Position numbers and translations under genes: made by a program. A DNA stretch of 39,748 nucleotides from a virus (Duplodnaviria; Heunggongvirae; Uroviricota; Caudoviricetes), in the IMG/VR virus record IMGVR_UViG_2563366998_000008, one strand, 5' to 3'. Each line of letters opens with the position of its first letter. The first letter of the stretch is position 1. Shown here in pieces: positions 3,332 to 38,702 of this stretch. The notes below the pieces were generated by a model that saw nothing but the letters and a program-made list of their open reading frames with translations, was not told where the DNA came from and searched no databases.

Positions 3332-3451
3332 ATATTTAGACTAAAGAGTTTGTAACGCTATGTAAGTGATTTTTTCTGGTTTAGATATTTATATGTCCGG
3401 CCAAATTGAGGTGTGTTTAAATGTTATTGCACATTGATTGTAGGGGGAATA

Positions 3452-3631
3452 ATGAAAAACGCATTGCAGTTTTTGTTTGTTGCGTTCTGGTTGTTCGCAT
3501 CATGTATGCCCATCATCTTCACAGCAAGGTATATGGAAAAAATTGATGTTTTGATATTAATGTTTGGACATATAAATGCCCTTTTTTTAGGGGTGTTCAT
3601 GGCGGTCATGTGCATTGAATACTGGCGGTAA
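3452..3631 (+). CDS. possible small hydrophobic membrane protein
   Basis: Short ORF in an AT-rich intergenic region; translation is strongly hydrophobic; no clear RBS seen. Confidence 0.2.
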   Translation: MKNALQFLFVAFWLFASCMPIIFTARYMEKIDVLILMFGHINALFLGVFMAVMCIEYWR

Positions 3632-3833
3632 ATACAGCGAACGCCATTGGTTTAGTTGGATATTTACTGTGCCGGACAAAAACGGTTTGCGGGGAAATCT
3701 TAGTTAAGTAGAATAACTGCGGGTGCTTGAGGCTATCTGTCTCAGGCATGAACACCAAAAGGCAGATAGAGAAAAGCCCCAGTTAACATTACGCGTCCTG
3801 CAAGACGCTTAACATTAATCTGAGGCCATATCT

Positions 3834-3893
3834 ATGCGACACATAGAGATTAGCCTCTTACGGACCGAAAGGTCAAGGAGAAGCAGGCTATGA
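3834..3893 (+). CDS. mok-like leader uORF translationally coupled to hok
   Basis: 19-codon ORF whose TGA (3891-3893) overlaps the hok ATG (3890-3892) as ATGA. Confidence 0.3.
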   Translation: MRHIEISLLRTERSRRSRL

Positions 3894-4045
3894 AGCAGCA
3901 AAAGGCGATGTTAATCGCCCTGATCGTCATCTGTTTAACCGTCATAGTGACGGCACTGGTAACGAGGAAAGACCTCTGCGAGGTACGAATCCGAACCGGC
4001 CAGACGGAGGTCGCTGTCTTCACAGCTTACGAACCTGAGGAGTAA
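3890..4045 (+). CDS. hokD: Hok/Gef family type I toxin (HokD/RelF-like)
   Basis: 51-aa product MKQQKAMLIALIVICLTVIVTALVTRKDLCEVRIRTGQTEVAVFTAYEPEE matches the Hok family as I recall it, likely HokD/RelF; followed by hairpin and terminator. Confidence 0.85.
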   Translation: MKQQKAMLIALIVICLTVIVTALVTRKDLCEVRIRTGQTEVAVFTAYEPEE

Positions 4046-4113
4046 GAGACCAGGCGAGGGAGAAATCCCTCGCCACCTCTGATGTGGCAGGCATCCTCAA
4101 CGCACCCGCACTT

Positions 4114-4140
4114 AACCCGCTTCGGCGGGTTTTTGTTTTT
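4114..4140 (+). terminator. rho-independent terminator after hok
   Basis: Stem AACCCGC / GCGGGTT with TTCG loop followed by a T-run. Confidence 0.5.
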
Positions 4141-4261
4141 ATTTTCAACGCATTTGAAGTTCTGGACGGTGCCGGAATAGAATCAAAAATACTTAAGTAG
4201 CGCGCAGGGATAAGAGGGATGGTCCCTTAAAGGGGAGAGCTAATTATCCGGAAGGATTCTG

Positions 4262-4513
4262 ATGATGAACATCGAAGAACTGCGTAAAATTTTTTGTGAA
4301 GATGGCCTCTATGCTGTGTGCGTTGAAAATGGAAATATTGTTAGCCATTACCGCATTGTGTGTTTGCAAAAAAATGGGGCTGCGTTAATTAATTTTGTGG
4401 ATGCCCGAGTGACGGACGGATTTATCTTGCACGACGGTGAGTTTGTCACTTCATTACAGGCATTGAAAGAGATCGGAATAAAAGCTGGCTTTTCTGCTTT
4501 TTCAGAAGAATAA
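4262..4513 (+). CDS. small phage protein (83 aa), possibly Rem-like
   Basis: ATG 4262 after GGAAGGA; size and position next to hok resemble rem of the E. coli Qin prophage (from memory, unverified). Confidence 0.55.
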   Translation: MMNIEELRKIFCEDGLYAVCVENGNIVSHYRIVCLQKNGAALINFVDARVTDGFILHDGEFVTSLQALKEIGIKAGFSAFSEE

Positions 4514-4579
4514 ACTCATCTACAATCTTGCGCGGGGCTGAACTCCCGCTGAGTAACACCGTGCCACCGGAGAAAACCG

Positions 4580-4858
4580 ATGGCACGCAACGCAAAATAT
4601 TACAATCATGATAATTCGACCGTTCTTGCCCACACGCACGAGCGGTATTCTCATGCATTTAAGTCAGACTGGTACCAGCATCCCCCATGCACTGAAGAAC
4701 AGGCCGAGTGGCTAATTCAGTGCTACCGCAGACACGGATACGAGATTAAGAAAGCCCTCAGCCTCGATTATCGTCACTGGATAATCTCCGTCAGGCTCCC
4801 TTACTCCGAACGGCCACCGCGTCCGTCCCGCACATTCCAGCAACGCATCTGGAGGTAA
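4580..4858 (+). CDS. hypothetical phage protein (92 aa)
   Basis: ATG 4580 with GGAG upstream; stop immediately precedes the next GTG start. Confidence 0.5.
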   Translation: MARNAKYYNHDNSTVLAHTHERYSHAFKSDWYQHPPCTEEQAEWLIQCYRRHGYEIKKALSLDYRHWIISVRLPYSERPPRPSRTFQQRIWR

Positions 4859-4859
4859 C

Positions 4860-5147
4860 GTGCGGGTATTACTTCGACCTGTTCTGGTACCGGAACTTGG
4901 GCTGGTGGTGCTAAAACCGGGCCGTGAATCCATGCCGGTATTCCACAATACCCGGGTACTGGTGGAGCCGGAACCGAAAAGCATGCGTAATCTGTCGTCC
5001 GGGGAGGCGATGTTAATCGCCCTGATCGTCATCTGTTTAACCGTCATAGTGACGGCACTGGTAACGAGGAAAGACCTCTGCGAGGTACGAATCCGAACCG
5101 GCCAGACGGAGGTCGCTGTCTTCACAGCTTACGAACCTGAGGAGTAA
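4860..5147 (+). CDS. chimeric ORF at the duplication junction: DUF968 N-terminus fused in frame to Hok residues 7-51
   Basis: GTG 4860 with GGAGG RBS; first ~47 aa match the start of 5962..7017, remainder is ...MLIALIVICLTVIVTALVTRKDLCEVRIRTGQTEVAVFTAYEPEE. Confidence 0.5.
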   Translation: MRVLLRPVLVPELGLVVLKPGRESMPVFHNTRVLVEPEPKSMRNLSSGEAMLIALIVICLTVIVTALVTRKDLCEVRIRTGQTEVAVFTAYEPEE

Positions 5148-5363
5148 GAGACCAGGCGAGGGAGAAATCCCTCGCCACCTCAGATGTGGCAGGCATCCTC
5201 AACGCACCCGCACTTAACCCGCTTCGGCGGGTTTTTGTTTTTATTTTCAACGCATTTGAAGTTCTGGACGGTGCCGGAATAGAATCAAAAATACTTAAGT
5301 AGCGCGCAGGGATAAGAGGGATGGTCCCTTAAAGGGGAGAGCTAATTATCCGGAAGGATTCTG

Positions 5364-5615
5364 ATGATGAACATCGAAGAACTGCGTAAAATTTTTTGTG
5401 AAGATGGCCTCTATGCTGTGTGCGTTGAAAATGGAAATATTGTTAGCCATTACCGCATTGTGTGTTTGCAAAAAAATGGGGCTGCGTTAATTAATTTTGT
5501 GGATGCTCGAGTGACGGACGGATTTATCTTGCACGACGGTGAGTTTGTCACTTCATTACAGGCATTGAAAGAGATCGGAATAAAAGCTGGCTTTTCTGCT
5601 TTTTCAGAAGAATAA
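5364..5615 (+). CDS. duplicate copy of the 83-aa Rem-like protein
   Basis: Identical translation to 4262..4513. Confidence 0.55.
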   Translation: MMNIEELRKIFCEDGLYAVCVENGNIVSHYRIVCLQKNGAALINFVDARVTDGFILHDGEFVTSLQALKEIGIKAGFSAFSEE

Positions 5616-5681
5616 ACTCATCTACAATCTTGCGCGGGGCTGAACTCCCGCTGAGTAACACCGTGCCACCGGAGAAAACCG

Positions 5682-5960
5682 ATGGCACGCAACGCAAAAT
5701 ATTACAATCATGATAATTCGACCGTTCTTGCCCACACGCACGAGCGGTATTCTCATGCATTTAAGTCAGACTGGTACCAGCATCCCCCATGCACTGAAGA
5801 ACAGGCCGAGTGGCTAATTCAGTGCTACCGCAGACACGGATACGAGATTAAGAAAGCCCTCAGCCTCGATTATCGTCACTGGATAATCTCCGTCAGGCTC
5901 CCTTACTCCGAACGGCCACCGCGTCCGTCCCGCACATTCCAGCAACGCATCTGGAGGTAA
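5682..5960 (+). CDS. duplicate copy of the 92-aa hypothetical protein
   Basis: Identical translation to 4580..4858. Confidence 0.5.
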   Translation: MARNAKYYNHDNSTVLAHTHERYSHAFKSDWYQHPPCTEEQAEWLIQCYRRHGYEIKKALSLDYRHWIISVRLPYSERPPRPSRTFQQRIWR

Positions 5961-5961
5961 C

Positions 5962-7017
5962 GTGCGGGTATTACTTCGACCTGTTCTGGTACCGGAACTC
6001 GGGCTGGTGATCGTTAAACCGGGCCGTGAATCCATGCCGGTATTCCACAATACCCGGGTACTGGTGGAGCCGGAACCGAAAAGCATGCGTAATCTGTCGT
6101 CCGGGGTCGTTCCTGCCGTTCGCCAGCCGCTGGCGGAGGATAAATCATTACTGCCATTTTTCAGCGACGAACGAGTGATTCGTGCTGCTGGTGGCGCTGG
6201 CGCATTGTCTGACTGGTTACTGCGCCATGTTAAATCCTGCCAGTGGCCACACGGCGATTATCACCACAGTGAAACCGTCATTCACCGTTATGGTACCGGC
6301 GCAATGGTGTTGTGCTGGCACTGCGACAACCAGCTGCGCGACCAGACCTCCGAATCACTCGGGCAACTTGCTCACCAAAACCTGTCTGCATGGATGATTG
6401 ACGTCATACGCCATGCAATGAATGGCTCGCAGGAACGGGAATTATCGCTGGCTGAATTATCCTGGTGGGCGGTCCGCAATCAGGTGGCGGACGCGCTACC
6501 GGAAGCGGTATTACGTCGTTCGCTGGGGTTGCGTGCGGAAAAAATCCGCTCAATGTACCGTGAAAGCGACATCGTACCGGGAGAGCAGACCGCCACCAGC
6601 ATACTGAAACAGCGCACAAAAAATCTTGCGCCGCTGCCTCACGCCCACCAGCAAAACCCGCCACAGGAAAAGACGGTGGTCAGCATTGCCGTTGATCCGG
6701 AGTCACCGGCTCAGTATCTCCAGCGCCAGAAACCACAACGGGAAGAGATGCCTGTATACACGCGCTGGGTAAAAACGCAGAAATGCATGACGTGTGGCAA
6801 TCAGGCAGATGATCCGCATCACATCATTGGTCATGGACTGGGAGGGATGGGAACAAAGGCTGACGATTTGTTTGTTATTCCGCTGTGTCGTAAATGCCAT
6901 AACGAACTACACGCCGGGGTAAAAGATTTTGAAGAAAAACACGGTAGTCAGTTGTTGTTGCTGATTCGTTTTTTAATGCACGCGAGAAATTCGGGTGTTC
7001 TGAAGTGGAAAGCATAA
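5962..7017 (+). CDS. DUF968-family phage protein (YdfU-like) with C-terminal Cys/His cluster
   Basis: GTG 5962 after GGAGG; 351 aa; C-terminal CMTCGN...HHIIGHG...CRKCHNELH. Confidence 0.65.
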   Translation: MRVLLRPVLVPELGLVIVKPGRESMPVFHNTRVLVEPEPKSMRNLSSGVVPAVRQPLAEDKSLLPFFSDERVIRAAGGAGALSDWLLRHVKSCQWPHGDYHHSETVIHRYGTGAMVLCWHCDNQLRDQTSESLGQLAHQNLSAWMIDVIRHAMNGSQERELSLAELSWWAVRNQVADALPEAVLRRSLGLRAEKIRSMYRESDIVPGEQTATSILKQRTKNLAPLPHAHQQNPPQEKTVVSIAVDPESPAQYLQRQKPQREEMPVYTRWVKTQKCMTCGNQADDPHHIIGHGLGGMGTKADDLFVIPLCRKCHNELHAGVKDFEEKHGSQLLLLIRFLMHARNSGVLKWKA

Positions 7018-8478: not shown

Positions 8479-8791
8479 AGGCTTTTTTATTTGTGGTAAA
8501 TGGGCGGCTGGTGGGTGTGGTGGTTGTTGCTTTCCCGTTGCTGAAAAAGAAAACGCCAGACTGTTAGCCGGGTATCAGTTAGCGGGAGAAATTTTTAAAT
8601 ACTTCACAATTCAGGCGGTTGACTGTTGTCTGGTTTGCGGGGAGTTTGTTAAAAGAAACTGGCATGGTGAATCCCCCTGTGCGGAGGGGCAATCAGCGAG
8701 TAGGTATATGGGATAATCGCGGATTCAGGTGCTGGTACTGAATTCACCGGGAGGCACCCGGCACCATGCAATGGCACATAGCGCCACTCTC

Positions 8792-8827
8792 CAGCCCCTC
8801 TCCGGAGGGGCTGTTTATATTGATTTT
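8792..8827 (+). terminator. hairpin with T-rich tail between convergent genes
   Basis: CAGCCCCTC-TCCG-GAGGGGCTG followed by TTTATATTGATTTT. Confidence 0.4.
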
Positions 8828-20204: not shown

Positions 20205-20930
20205 GCCTGACTGATTGTGCACAGAAAACCCCCAGCTAGGCTGGGGGTTCCGGAAAGCTTTCAGCTTTGAGCCAGTTATTAAAACCCCTTTTGATTTGTT
20301 AAAACACCTTGCGGTCTGGCAACTGCAAGTGTCAAACAAGAAATCAAAAGGGGGTCCCAATGGGGAACGAAAAGAGCTTAGCGCACACCCGATGGAACTG
20401 TAAATATCACATAGTTTTTGCGCCAAAATACCGAAGACAGGTGTTCTACAGAGAGAAGCGTAGAGCAATAGGCAGTATTTTGAGAAAGCTGTGTGAGTGG
20501 AAAAGCGTACGGATTCTGGAAGCTGAATGCTGTGCAGATCATATCCATATGCTTGTGGAGATCCCGCCTAAAATGAGCGTATCCGGGTTTATGGGATATC
20601 TGAAAGGGAAAAGCAGTCTGATGCTTTACGAGCAGTTTGGTGATTTGAAATTCAAATACAGGAACAGGGAGTTCTGGTGCAGAGGGTACTACGTCGATAC
20701 AGTGGGTAAGAACACGGCGAAGATACAGGATTACATAAAGCACCAGCTTGAAGAGGATAAAATGGGAGAGCAGTTATCGATTCCCTATCCGGGCAGCCCG
20801 TTTACGGGCCGTAAGTAACGAAGTTGGATGCAAATGTCAGATCGTGTGCGCCTGTTAGGGCGCGGCTGGTAAGAGAGCCTTATAGGCGCATTTGAAAAAC
20901 CTCCGGCTATGCCGGAGGATATTTATTTTC
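20205..20930 (+). mobile_element. IS200-family insertion sequence (boundaries approximate, +/- 30 bp)
   Basis: Y1 transposase gene flanked by subterminal perfect hairpins (CCCCCAGC-TAGG-CTGGGGG near the left end; CTCCGGC-TAT-GCCGGAG near the right); enlarges the D-E gap to 769 bp. Confidence 0.75.
20360..20818 (+). CDS. tnpA: IS200/IS605-family Y1 (HUH) transposase TnpA
   Basis: MGNEKSLAHTRWNCKYHIVFAPKYRR...HIHMLVEIPPK...YLKGKSS characteristic of IS200 TnpA. Confidence 0.9.
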   Translation: MGNEKSLAHTRWNCKYHIVFAPKYRRQVFYREKRRAIGSILRKLCEWKSVRILEAECCADHIHMLVEIPPKMSVSGFMGYLKGKSSLMLYEQFGDLKFKYRNREFWCRGYYVDTVGKNTAKIQDYIKHQLEEDKMGEQLSIPYPGSPFTGRK

Positions 20931-38118: not shown

Positions 38119-38702
38119 TGGCATTCAGAATGAGTGAACAAGCACGGACCATAAAAATTTATAATCTGCTGGCCGGAACTAATGAATTTATTGGTGAAGG
38201 TGACGCATATATTCCGCCTCATACAGGTCTGCCAGCAAACAGTACCGATATTGCACCACCAGATATTCCTGCTGGCTTTGTGGCTGTTTTCAACAGTGAT
38301 GAGGCATCGTGGCATCTCGTTGAAGACCATCGGGGGAAAACGGTTTATGACGTAGCGTCAGGGGACGAGTTATTTATTTCTGAACTCGGTCCGTTACCGG
38401 AAAATGTTACCTGGTTATCGCCGGAAGGGGAGTTTCAGAAGTGGAACGGCACAGCCTGGGTGAAGGATACGGAAGCAGAAAAACTGTTCCGGATCCGGGA
38501 GGCGGAAGAAACAAAAAACAACCTGATGCAGGTAGCCAGTGAGCATATTGCGCCGCTTCAGGATGCTGCAGATCTGGAAATTGCAACGGAGGAAGAAACC
38601 TCATTGCTGGAAGCCTGGAAAAAGTATCGGGTGTTGCTGAACCGTGTTGATACATCAACTGCACCTGATATTGAGTGGCCTACGAACCCTGTCAGGGAGT
38701 AA
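38118..38702 (+). CDS. tfa: tail fiber assembly protein (Tfa)
   Basis: 194 aa; start overlaps stf stop (TAATG); typical Tfa C-terminus. Confidence 0.9.
38538..38702 (+). repeat. tfa 3' segment, direct repeat copy A
   Basis: ~165 bp, roughly 85-90% identical by eye to 39587..39748. Confidence 0.8.

What the first reader, a model, noticed from the sequence alone, without database searches (positions are those of the whole stretch)
3700..4140. hok locus with a mok-like leader ORF coupled to hok by ATGA overlap
Seen in sequence: a 19-codon uORF (3834..3893) ends with TGA overlapping the hok ATG, an arrangement resembling mok-hok translational coupling. The region upstream (3660-3830) is AT-rich and could carry a sok-like antisense promoter on the minus strand, which I could not pinpoint. 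Two hairpins follow hok (4055-4076 and the terminator at 4114-4140). No relBE genes lie upstream in this window, unlike the K-12 relBE-hokD arrangement as I recall it.
Basis: partly seen in the sequence, partly recalled or inferred. Interest (0 to 1): 0.4.

Follow-up and report, generated by a model that had tools for sequence, protein, structure and literature searches.

The report
Intact prophage hokD/sok toxin-antitoxin locus
This is a complete, ordinary copy of the well-known hok/sok RNA-controlled killer-gene cassette sitting in a lambda-like prophage of E. coli; its only unusual detail is that the short leader reading frame stops exactly on the toxin's start codon.

Summary
A 19-codon ORF (ATG 3834 to TGA 3893) ends in ATGA on the start of a 51-aa Hok gene (3890-4045), and two hairpins follow. 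[quoted passage not shown] The leader matches Rfam RF01794 (106.7 bits, cut-off 59). Hok matches Pfam HOK_GEF. The 5' end (3721-3732) pairs with 4095-4107, the tac/fbi closure.

The uORF start aligns with mok of phage 933W, K-12 hokC and R1-type plasmids. K-12 hokD is this same locus cut 14 nt before the hok ATG by relBE. Its promoter lies inside mok on the minus strand (3877-3848), and Sok runs about 3840 to 3772.

The mok-to-hok distance is 56 nt here, 57 nt (in frame) in most relatives and 58 nt in R1. Published R1 genetics show that mok only needs to be translated up to the hok start, so this allele is a natural minimal mok. Its mok segment occurs in roughly 750-780 of 5,426 complete E. 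coli genomes.

Verdict: known system, low interest. A strain-specific 1,102-bp duplication also creates a DUF968-Hok fusion ORF.

The parts
3686..3714 (+). hok promoter: -35 TTTGCG (3686-3691), 17 nt, -10 TAGAAT (3709-3714); transcript start about 3721
   Evidence: Read. The -10 aligns with the R1-type TATGAT and is identical in 933W. It was not called by the consensus scan, which fits the known weak hok promoter. Position inferred by homology.
3721..4141 (+). full-length hok mRNA (about 420 nt), from the tac 5' end to the intrinsic terminator
   Evidence: Rfam RF01794 covers 3721-3892 at 106.7 bits, cut-off 59. MFE -169.8 kcal/mol, z = -8.1 against shuffles.
3721..3733 (+). tac element (GGGUGCUUGAGGC). 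It pairs with fbi in the full-length RNA, or with 3739-3749 as a local 5' hairpin once the 3' end is removed.
   Evidence: 12 bp between 3721-3732 and 4095-4107, duplex -21.5 kcal/mol.
3776..3826 (+). long leader hairpin; its complement is the Sok stem-loop and terminator
   Evidence: Pairs kept in 66-68 of 68 variants.
3772..3840 (-). predicted Sok antisense RNA (about 69 nt): 13-nt 5' tail, long hairpin, UUUU
   Evidence: Coordinates transferred from the annotated 71-nt sokW of 933W through alignment. Folds like SokW. Expression not tested.
3848..3877 (-). sok promoter: -35 TTGACC (3877-3872), 18 nt, -10 TAATCT (3853-3848)
   Evidence: Reverse complement read. Aligns with 933W TTGCCT-17-TAACCT and R1-type TTGCGC-17-TATCCT. 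The sokW -10 was mutated with loss of antitoxin activity in PMC8621323. Not called by the scan.
3822..3825 (+). mok Shine-Dalgarno GAGG, 8 nt before the mok ATG
   Evidence: Conserved against the R1-type locus.
3834..3893 (+). mok: 19 codons plus TGA; the stop overlaps the hok ATG (ATGA)
3831..3847 (+). small hairpin holding the mok AUG (UCUAUG-CGACA-CAUAGA); the Sok-target region and the most variable stretch among alleles
3851..3890 (+). hairpin that sequesters the hok SD (AAGGAG 3875-3880) and start codon. The 5' arm lies in mok codons 6-9. The inner stem GACC-GAAA-GGUC is 3863-3874.
   Evidence: The inner stem is UGCC/GGCA in 57-nt alleles and GCGC/GCGC in the R1 type, a compensatory pattern read by eye.
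3890..4045 (+). hok (HokD), 51 aa
   Evidence: The CDS is identical to K-12 hokD.
4053..4074 (+). 9-bp GAAA-loop hairpin; inferred protective 3' end of the processed, translatable hok mRNA
   Evidence: Role inferred from the R1 model (PMC9841398).
4095..4107 (+). fbi element (CCUCAACGCACCC), complementary to tac
   Evidence: Invariant in 933W, HannyBb, Rac 442/2 and K-12.
4114..4141 (+). intrinsic terminator of hok mRNA
4860..5147 (+). side feature: chimeric ORF made of 48 codons of the DUF968 gene fused in frame to hok codons 6-51, created by a 1,102-bp direct duplication (3903-5004 and 5005-6106)

Best explanation
The locus is an intact hok/sok-type type I toxin-antitoxin cassette of the hokD/hokW subfamily, carried in the early-right region of a lambdoid prophage, upstream of rem, a DUF968 gene, rusA and Q.

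Inferred mechanism, by homology with R1 hok/sok and 933W hokW/sokW:
1. A weak promoter (-10 at 3709-3714) makes a stable hok mRNA of about 420 nt.
2. The 5' tac element (3721-3732) is clamped to fbi (4095-4107), so neither ribosomes nor Sok can act on the RNA.
3. Slow 3' trimming back to hairpin 4053-4074 removes fbi. The 5' end then refolds and the mok ribosome-binding site (GAGG 3822-3825, AUG 3834) opens.
4. Sok is a short-lived RNA of about 69 nt, made from a promoter inside mok on the other strand (3877-3848). It pairs with 3772-3840, blocks mok translation and marks the duplex for RNase III.
5. When Sok is lost, ribosomes translate the 19 mok codons. This melts hairpin 3851-3890, which hides the hok SD and AUG. 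The ribosomes terminate at UGA 3891-3893, on top of the hok AUG, so Hok is made by unfolding plus termination-reinitiation.
6. Hok, a 51-aa membrane peptide, then damages the inner membrane.

The short mok is a natural minimal version, not a defect.

What is shown here: sequence, homology, predicted pairings, conservation. What is inferred: transcription starts, 3' processing, coupling and toxicity in this context.
For: - Family matches: Rfam RF01794 at 106.7 bits against a cut-off of 59 over 3721-3892, + strand. Pfam HOK_GEF at E=1.2e-23.
- RNA folding: the 12-bp tac/fbi closure appears in the MFE fold, z = -8.1. The 5' end refolds when the 3' end is removed.
- Homologues: 91.4% nt identity to 933W hokW/mokW/sokW, where all three genes are annotated. 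hokW/sokW was shown to be a working TA in PMC8621323. The hok CDS is identical to K-12 hokD, and HokD peptide was reported toxic (bioRxiv 10.1101/2025.08.07.668861).
- Sok: the sok promoter and Sok hairpin align with sokW and R1.
- R1 genetics: stop codons in mok upstream of the hok start abolish Hok, stops after the hok start do not, and 19 mok codons precede hok (PMC9841398).
- Allele frequency: the allele-specific 58-mer 3827-3884 is in roughly 750-780 of 5,426 complete E. coli genomes, including EC958.
- hok integrity: all 15 complete 56-nt-type loci in an IMG/VR sample keep an intact hok.
Against: - No expression data exist for this allele.
- The consensus promoter scan called neither the hok nor the sok promoter. 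The sok -10 TAATCT matches only 3 of 6 consensus positions.
- The 2-nt deletion that shortens mok also shrinks the loop of the mok-AUG hairpin to CGACA. It removes the CUAG/CUGA (YUNR-like) sequence seen in 57-nt alleles, which might slow Sok binding.
- Chromosomal hok loci tested in the past (hokA, hokB, hokC) did not mediate post-segregational killing (cited).
- My sample of relatives was fetched with a pattern that fixes 3815-3826 and 3887-3906, so conservation there is by construction.
Confidence: 0.78

Rival explanations
1. The locus is a silent, decaying hok copy. The 2-nt deletion just after the mok ATG is a frameshift that truncates Mok and uncouples hok translation, as other lesions silenced the K-12 chromosomal hok loci.
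For: Relative to the 58-nt (R1, Rac 442/2) and 57-nt (933W, hokC) arrangements, the window lacks 2 nt at ATGC--GAC. Only 16 of 125 sampled loci have this form. Older work found chromosomal hok loci inactive in killing assays.
Against: The truncated frame still runs through the hok SD to the hok AUG. That is the only part of mok R1 needs. One identical mok module is kept in hundreds of genomes with hok, tac, fbi, the sok promoter and the terminator all intact. A random frameshift would more likely stop earlier.
Confidence: 0.12
2. hok is translated on its own from its strong SD (AAGGAG, 9 nt before the ATG). The 19-codon ORF is only the remnant Sok target, with no coupling role, and the ATGA overlap is incidental.
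For: The hok SD is close to consensus. ATGA overlaps are common in compact genomes.
Against: The hok SD and AUG are paired in hairpin 3851-3890 in every fold. Sok does not reach the hok SD, so without mok coupling Sok could not repress hok. The mok ATG and SD are invariant in all variants. In R1 the mok start codon is required.
Confidence: 0.07
3. One reading: the sok-like antisense promoter lies in the AT-richer stretch upstream (3660-3830) on the minus strand.
For: The region is somewhat AT-richer than the window, 44% against 52% GC.
Against: 3721-3833 is inside the hok transcript and holds the body and terminator of Sok, not its promoter. The homologous, annotated sokW starts 8 nt inside mokW and runs leftwards, and sokC has the same geometry. 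No minus-strand promoter-like site was found in 3600-4300.
Confidence: 0.02

Closest known systems
hokW/mokW/sokW of Stx2 phage 933W / Sakai prophage Sp5 (AF125520; Takada et al. 2021, PMC8621323)
   Same: 91.4% nt identity over the cassette. Same tac, leader hairpins, mok ATG position, sok promoter position, fbi and Hok length. It sits in a lambdoid phage and has been shown experimentally to be a type I TA that aids lysis and phage release after induction.
   Different: mokW is 57 nt upstream and in frame with hokW, giving a 70-aa Mok-Hok product. Here the distance is 56 nt, so mok is 19 codons and stops on the hok ATG. The Sok 5' tail differs (GUUCAGCAUGGAUU against GUCGCAUAGAUAU). The sok -35 and spacer differ (TTGCCT-17 against TTGACC-18). 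The Hok C-terminus differs (VDYESEK against TAYEPEE). The position in the phage genome and the terminator are different.
hokD (relF) of E. coli K-12 Qin prophage, relB-relE-hokD
   Same: The hok CDS is identical, and the 3' UTR and downstream rem gene are nearly identical from window 3876 onward. PGAP names the window-type gene hokD.
   Different: K-12 lacks everything left of 3876 (tac, leader, mok start, Sok, part of the sok promoter) because relBE sits there. The window has the un-rearranged form. That relBE inserted into an ancestral, longer hokD was already stated by Ramisetty and co-workers (PMC6379469).
hok/sok (parB) of plasmid R1, the mechanistic paradigm
   Same: Same order of elements: hok -10, tac, ucb region, Sok hairpin, mok SD, mok ATG, sok promoter inside mok, hok SD hairpin, hok, 3' hairpin, fbi, terminator. 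19 mok codons precede hok.
   Different: R1 mok is 58 nt upstream (A116 against A174 in PMC9841398), out of frame, and runs 70 codons across hok. Hok is only about 44% identical. R1 is plasmid-borne and acts in post-segregational killing. An IncFII plasmid with the identical R1 Hok protein has a 57-nt, in-frame mok, so the frame also varies in that subfamily.
hokC/mokC/sokC (gef) of E. coli K-12
   Same: mokC starts 57 nt (19 codons) before hokC, and sokC starts 8 nt inside mokC on the other strand. It shares the GACC-loop-GGUC hairpin and the TTGACC sok -35 with the window.
   Different: It is in frame, a chromosomal non-prophage site, and flanked by IS186 in K-12.

Membership tests
[quoted passage not shown] | Small (about 50 aa) hydrophobic Hok/Gef toxin ORF | tested here: met
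   3890-4045, 51 aa. Pfam PF01848 HOK_GEF E=1.2e-23, covering the whole profile. PHROG 251 E=2.8e-33.
[quoted passage not shown] | Long structured hok mRNA leader that fits the family covariance model | tested here: met
   Rfam RF01794 at 106.7 bits against a gathering score of 59, model positions 1-157, 3721-3892, + strand. Despite its name, the model is in the hok-sense orientation: it begins with tac and ends with the hok AUG.
[quoted passage not shown] | 5' tac / 3' fbi long-range pairing that closes the full-length mRNA | tested here: met
   12 bp between 3721-3732 and 4095-4107, -21.5 kcal/mol, present in the MFE and centroid folds. In silico only.
[quoted passage not shown] | mok leader ORF with its own SD, starting about 19 codons before hok and translated through the hok initiation region | tested here: met
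   ATG 3834 aligns with mokW, mok of Rac 442/2 and R1-type mok. GAGG lies 8 nt upstream. The frame reaches the hok AUG. It differs in ending there rather than overlapping hok.
[quoted passage not shown] | cis-encoded antisense Sok gene with its promoter inside mok, covering the mok SD and AUG | tested here: inconclusive
   Sequence and fold are homologous to annotated sokW. Promoter hexamers sit at the homologous site, but the consensus scan does not call them. Transcription cannot be tested here.
[quoted passage not shown] | 3' processing, RNase III cleavage of the duplex, and killing when Sok decays | not testable with these tools
   Needs Northern blots, rifampicin chase and genetics. Shown for R1 and partly for hokW (PMC9841398, PMC8621323).
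K-12-type relBE-hokD (relBEF) operon | relB and relE immediately upstream, hokD lacking its own leader, mok and sok | tested here: not met
   No relBE in the window. Homology to K-12 begins only at 3876. The window is the un-rearranged allele.
hokW/sokW (933W/Sp5) subfamily | In-frame 70-codon mokW-hokW arrangement (57-nt offset) | tested here: not met
   The offset is 56 nt in the window. 107 of 125 sampled relatives have 57, 16 have 56 and 2 have 58.

The most novel reading that the evidence does not exclude
The distance between the mok and hok starts takes all three reading-frame phases in near-identical cassettes: 56, 57 and 58 nt. The 56-nt allele is common. It carries a natural 'minimal mok' that ends on the hok AUG, avoids making any Mok-Hok overlap or fusion product, and has lost the YUNR-like loop sequence of the Sok target.

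If this allele is fully active, it is a ready-made natural test that only ribosome transit to the hok start matters, and that termination-reinitiation can replace overlap coupling. It may also have altered Sok-binding kinetics.

Separately, the strain-specific DUF968-Hok fusion ORF (4860-5147) could be a Sok-independent Hok expressed only with the prophage early genes.
Probability: 0.3. Interest if true: 0.3.

Novelty: already known. Interest (0 to 1): 0.15.

Why it matters
The practical value is correct annotation. Genome pipelines label only the 51-aa hokD CDS here, while the mok ORF, the Sok RNA and the mRNA elements go unmarked. The Rfam 'sok' hit is on the hok-sense strand and can mislead.

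The comparison also shows that K-12 hokD is a truncated derivative of this cassette. It further shows that the mok frame is free to drift, which agrees with published R1 genetics: the act of translating mok matters, not the peptide.

For people working on prophage-borne hok/sok (lysis timing, prophage retention, phage exclusion), the 56-nt allele offers a natural variant to test coupling. It is present in roughly one in seven complete E. coli genomes, including ST131 EC958. None of this changes what is known about the system.

Tried and rejected
- **Promoter scan.** The consensus promoter/terminator scan of 3600-4300 found only the hok terminator and a promoter-like site before rem. It called neither the hok nor the sok promoter. 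I kept those by homology, because the validated 933W sokW promoter would fail the same thresholds.
- **Sub-threshold Rfam hits.** isrK (25.7 bits against 50) and rsmX at 4049-4135 and 5151-5237, and a snoRNA hit at 3734-3833, were rejected as chance resemblance to a two-hairpin 3' end.
- **Covariation count.** The alignment-based count on 68 leader variants found few compensatory pairs (3735:3767, 3833:3845) because the subfamily is too similar. It also mis-scored the GACC/GGUC hairpin because of the 1-nt indel, so that case rests on reading the sequences.
- **Census query.** The 120-nt query was not usable for counting the allele, because partial matches inflate the 99% band. I replaced it with the allele-specific 58-mer.
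- **Duplication junction.** Searches found nothing in 5,426 E. coli genomes, IMG/VR, GTDB representatives or JGI metagenomes. Only one NCBI draft assembly has it.
- **Papers not held.** Steif & Meyer 2012 and Ramisetty & Santhosh 2016. Pedersen & Gerdes 1999 was not looked up; it is known to me only through citations.
- **Wrong coordinates.** My remembered coordinates for hokB/mokB were wrong and returned only gapC.

Full report
**1. The observation**

Reading 3400-4400 confirms the leader ORF. It starts at ATG 3834 and has 19 sense codons (MRHIEISLLRTERSRRSRL). Its stop, TGA 3891-3893, shares three bases with the ATG (3890-3892) of a 51-codon ORF, 3890-4045. That ORF is a Hok toxin: Pfam HOK_GEF at E=1.2e-23 over the whole profile, and PHROG 251 'MokW-like host killing'.

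Two hairpins follow hok. The first is a 9-bp stem with a GAAA loop at 4053-4074. The second is the terminator stem 4114-4131 plus a T run. 'AT-rich upstream' is a mild effect, 44% against 52% GC. There is no relBE in the window.

**2. Where the window comes from**

The window is a lambdoid prophage of E. coli. At 99.9% identity, many complete genomes carry the same stretch. The gene order is: replication genes, HNH endonuclease, a hypothetical gene, hokD, rem, a 92-aa ORF, a DUF968 gene, rusA, Q, then the lysis genes. NCBI's pipeline annotates only the 51-aa CDS, as 'type I toxin-antitoxin system toxin HokD'.

**3. The RNA architecture is complete**

- **Leader model.** Rfam's 'sok' model RF01794 hits 3721-3892 on the + strand at 106.7 bits (gathering score 59). 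The consensus begins GGGUGCUUGAG and ends at the hok AUG. It therefore describes the hok mRNA leader in the sense orientation, with Sok encoded on the opposite strand.
- **tac/fbi closure.** Folding 3721-4141 gives -169.8 kcal/mol, with z = -8.1 against shuffles. The first 12 nt (3721-3732) pair with 4095-4107 in a duplex of -21.5 kcal/mol. This is the tac/fbi closure of the full-length, inert hok mRNA described for R1 (PMC9841398).
- **Refolding.** With the 3' end removed down to hairpin 4053-4074, the 5' end refolds locally. This is what the R1 model requires.
- **hok ribosome site hidden.** The hok SD (AAGGAG 3875-3880) and AUG sit in a hairpin spanning 3851-3890, whose 5' arm lies within mok codons 6-9.
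- **Compensatory inner stem.** The inner stem is GACC-GAAA-GGUC here, UGCC-GAAA-GGCA in the commoner alleles, GACC-GUAA-GGUC in hokC and GCGC-UUU-GCGC in the R1 type. I read this compensatory pattern from the sequences. The automatic count was confounded by an indel.

**4. mok and sok**

The uORF ATG aligns column for column with annotated mok genes. These are mokW of phage 933W, mok of phage 'Rac' 442/2, and the mok ATG of an R1-type plasmid locus. It is invariant in 68 distinct leader variants.

- In 933W, the annotated 71-nt sokW starts 8 nt inside mokW on the opposite strand and runs leftwards. K-12 sokC has the same geometry relative to mokC.
- Transferred through the alignment, Sok here is about 3840 to 3772 on the minus strand.
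- The homologous promoter is TTGACC (3877-3872), 18 nt, TAATCT (3853-3848). This compares with TTGCCT-17-TAACCT in 933W and TTGCGC-17-TATCCT in the R1 type.
- Predicted Sok folds as a 13-nt 5' tail, a long hairpin and UUUU, just like SokW.
- The consensus scan misses this promoter, but it would also miss the 933W one. Mutating the 933W -10 abolished antitoxin activity (PMC8621323).

**5. Relation to K-12 hokD**

From window position 3876, which is 14 nt before the hok ATG, through hok, fbi, the terminator and rem, K-12 is almost identical to the window. To the left, K-12 has relE and relB instead. K-12 hokD is therefore this cassette with its tac, leader, mok start and Sok replaced. That relBE inserted into a longer ancestral hokD is already in the literature (PMC6379469).

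**6. The one unusual detail: the mok frame**

The distance from the mok ATG to the hok ATG takes three values.

| Distance | Found in | Consequence |
|---|---|---|
| 56 nt | this window | 19-codon mok ending on the hok ATG |
| 57 nt | 933W, HannyBb, K-12 hokC, an IncFII plasmid carrying the R1 Hok protein | in frame, 70-71-aa Mok-Hok |
| 58 nt | Rac 442/2, R1 itself (A116 against A174 in PMC9841398) | out of frame |

Census figures:
- In 125 related loci pulled from IMG/VR with an anchored pattern, 107 are 57 nt, 16 are 56 nt and 2 are 58 nt.
- All 16 of the 56-nt loci carry one and the same mok module.
- All 15 of those that are complete keep an intact hok.
- The allele-specific 58-mer 3827-3884 is in roughly 750-780 of 5,426 complete E. 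coli genomes, including EC958.

R1 genetics bear directly on this. Stop codons in mok upstream of the hok start abolish Hok. Stops beyond the hok start do not. Exactly 19 mok codons precede hok (PMC9841398). The window's mok is thus the minimal form that still satisfies the known requirement.

I infer that coupling works in two ways. Ribosomes translating mok melt hairpin 3851-3890, and they then terminate on the hok AUG. The 2-nt deletion also removes a CUAG/CUGA sequence from the loop next to the mok AUG. Whether that changes Sok binding is untested.

Variation among alleles peaks at 3837-3845, at the predicted 5' end of Sok. This would fit allele-specific Sok recognition in genomes that carry up to 9 matching places. 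That reading is a conjecture.

**7. Function**

By homology, the cassette is a Sok-controlled membrane toxin. For the closest studied relative, hokW/sokW, the shown role is earlier lysis and about two-fold more phage released after mitomycin C induction (PMC8621323). Prophage retention and exclusion of other phages are the other roles proposed for the family. None of these was tested here.

**8. Verdict**

This is a known system and a known subfamily, and the exact allele is abundant in public genomes. The ATGA-terminated mok is a small natural variant that fits existing theory, so interest is low. The Hok survey I read did not analyse Mok coding sequences (bioRxiv 10.1101/2025.08.07.668861). 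I therefore cannot say whether the three-phase variation has been written up. Pedersen & Gerdes 1999 was not looked up, and Steif & Meyer 2012 could not be read.

**9. Side finding: a strain-specific duplication**

- **Extent.** A 1,102-bp direct duplication (3903-5004 and 5005-6106) repeats hok codons 6-51, its 3' UTR, rem, the 92-aa ORF and the first 48 codons of the DUF968 gene.
- **Junction.** The junction (ccgggg|aggcgatg) shows no microhomology. It fuses the DUF968 start, with its own GGAGG ribosome site, in frame to Hok residues 6-51, giving ORF 4860-5147. This ORF contains a complete HOK_GEF domain and has no leader, mok or sok.
- **Copies.** The two copies differ at several positions, so this is not a simple assembler duplicate.
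- **Rarity.** The junction is absent from 5,426 complete E. coli genomes, IMG/VR, GTDB representatives and JGI metagenomes. The fusion protein is on record in one NCBI draft assembly only, GCA_000351785.1.
- **Open question.** Whether it is expressed or toxic is unknown.

Noticed in passing
window 3903-5004 and 5005-6106; fusion ORF 4860-5147: A 1,102-bp direct duplication whose junction fuses the first 48 codons of the DUF968 gene in frame to hok codons 6-51. The resulting 95-aa ORF has a complete HOK_GEF domain, uses the DUF968 ribosome site, and has no mok/sok control. The copies differ at 4080, 4405, 4898 and other positions. The junction is absent from 5,426 complete E. coli genomes, IMG/VR, GTDB representatives and JGI metagenomes. 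The protein is on record only in assembly GCA_000351785.1.
   Followed up: yes
window 3452-3631 (+): A 59-aa very hydrophobic ORF (MKNALQFLFVAFWLFASCMPIIF...) ends 55 nt before the hok promoter. It has no Pfam or PHROG match. It is called as a gene in the NCBI draft assembly but is not annotated in RefSeq strain 7/2.
   Followed up: partly
window 3837-3845 and homologous positions in L005-L124: The few bases right after the mok ATG, at the predicted 5' end of Sok, are the most variable part of the leader among 68 variants, while the flanks are nearly fixed. This may reflect allele-specific Sok recognition in genomes that hold several copies (up to 9 matching places per genome).
   Followed up: partly
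window 4027-4033 (UUACGAA, Tyr47 codon UAC at 4028-4030) and 3984-3989: Two TACGAA motifs resemble the TadA A-to-I editing site reported for hok mRNAs. Editing A4029 would recode Tyr47 to Cys. The second motif would give a synonymous Val32 change. Only the motif was seen; no structure or data were checked.
   Followed up: no
window 8633-8822, 20227-20350, 38461-38659 (+): Rfam gathering-level hits to STnc100 (132 bits), STnc490 (146 bits) and IS009 (225 bits), all prophage-associated sRNA families, elsewhere in the prophage.
   Followed up: no
window 4154-4183 (+): A promoter-like site (TTGAAG-18-TAGAAT) lies just after the hok terminator and before rem. If active in lysogens, it would also drive the downstream DUF968-Hok fusion ORF.
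   Followed up: no
L126 (NZ_CP128973.1, IncFII plasmid) 344-556: A plasmid hok locus whose Hok protein is 100% identical to R1 Hok has its mok ATG 57 nt upstream (in frame, 71-aa product). Published R1 coordinates give 58 nt. The mok phase therefore also varies within the R1 subfamily. PGAP annotates a shortened 33-aa CDS (458-559, stop included) there.
   Followed up: partly
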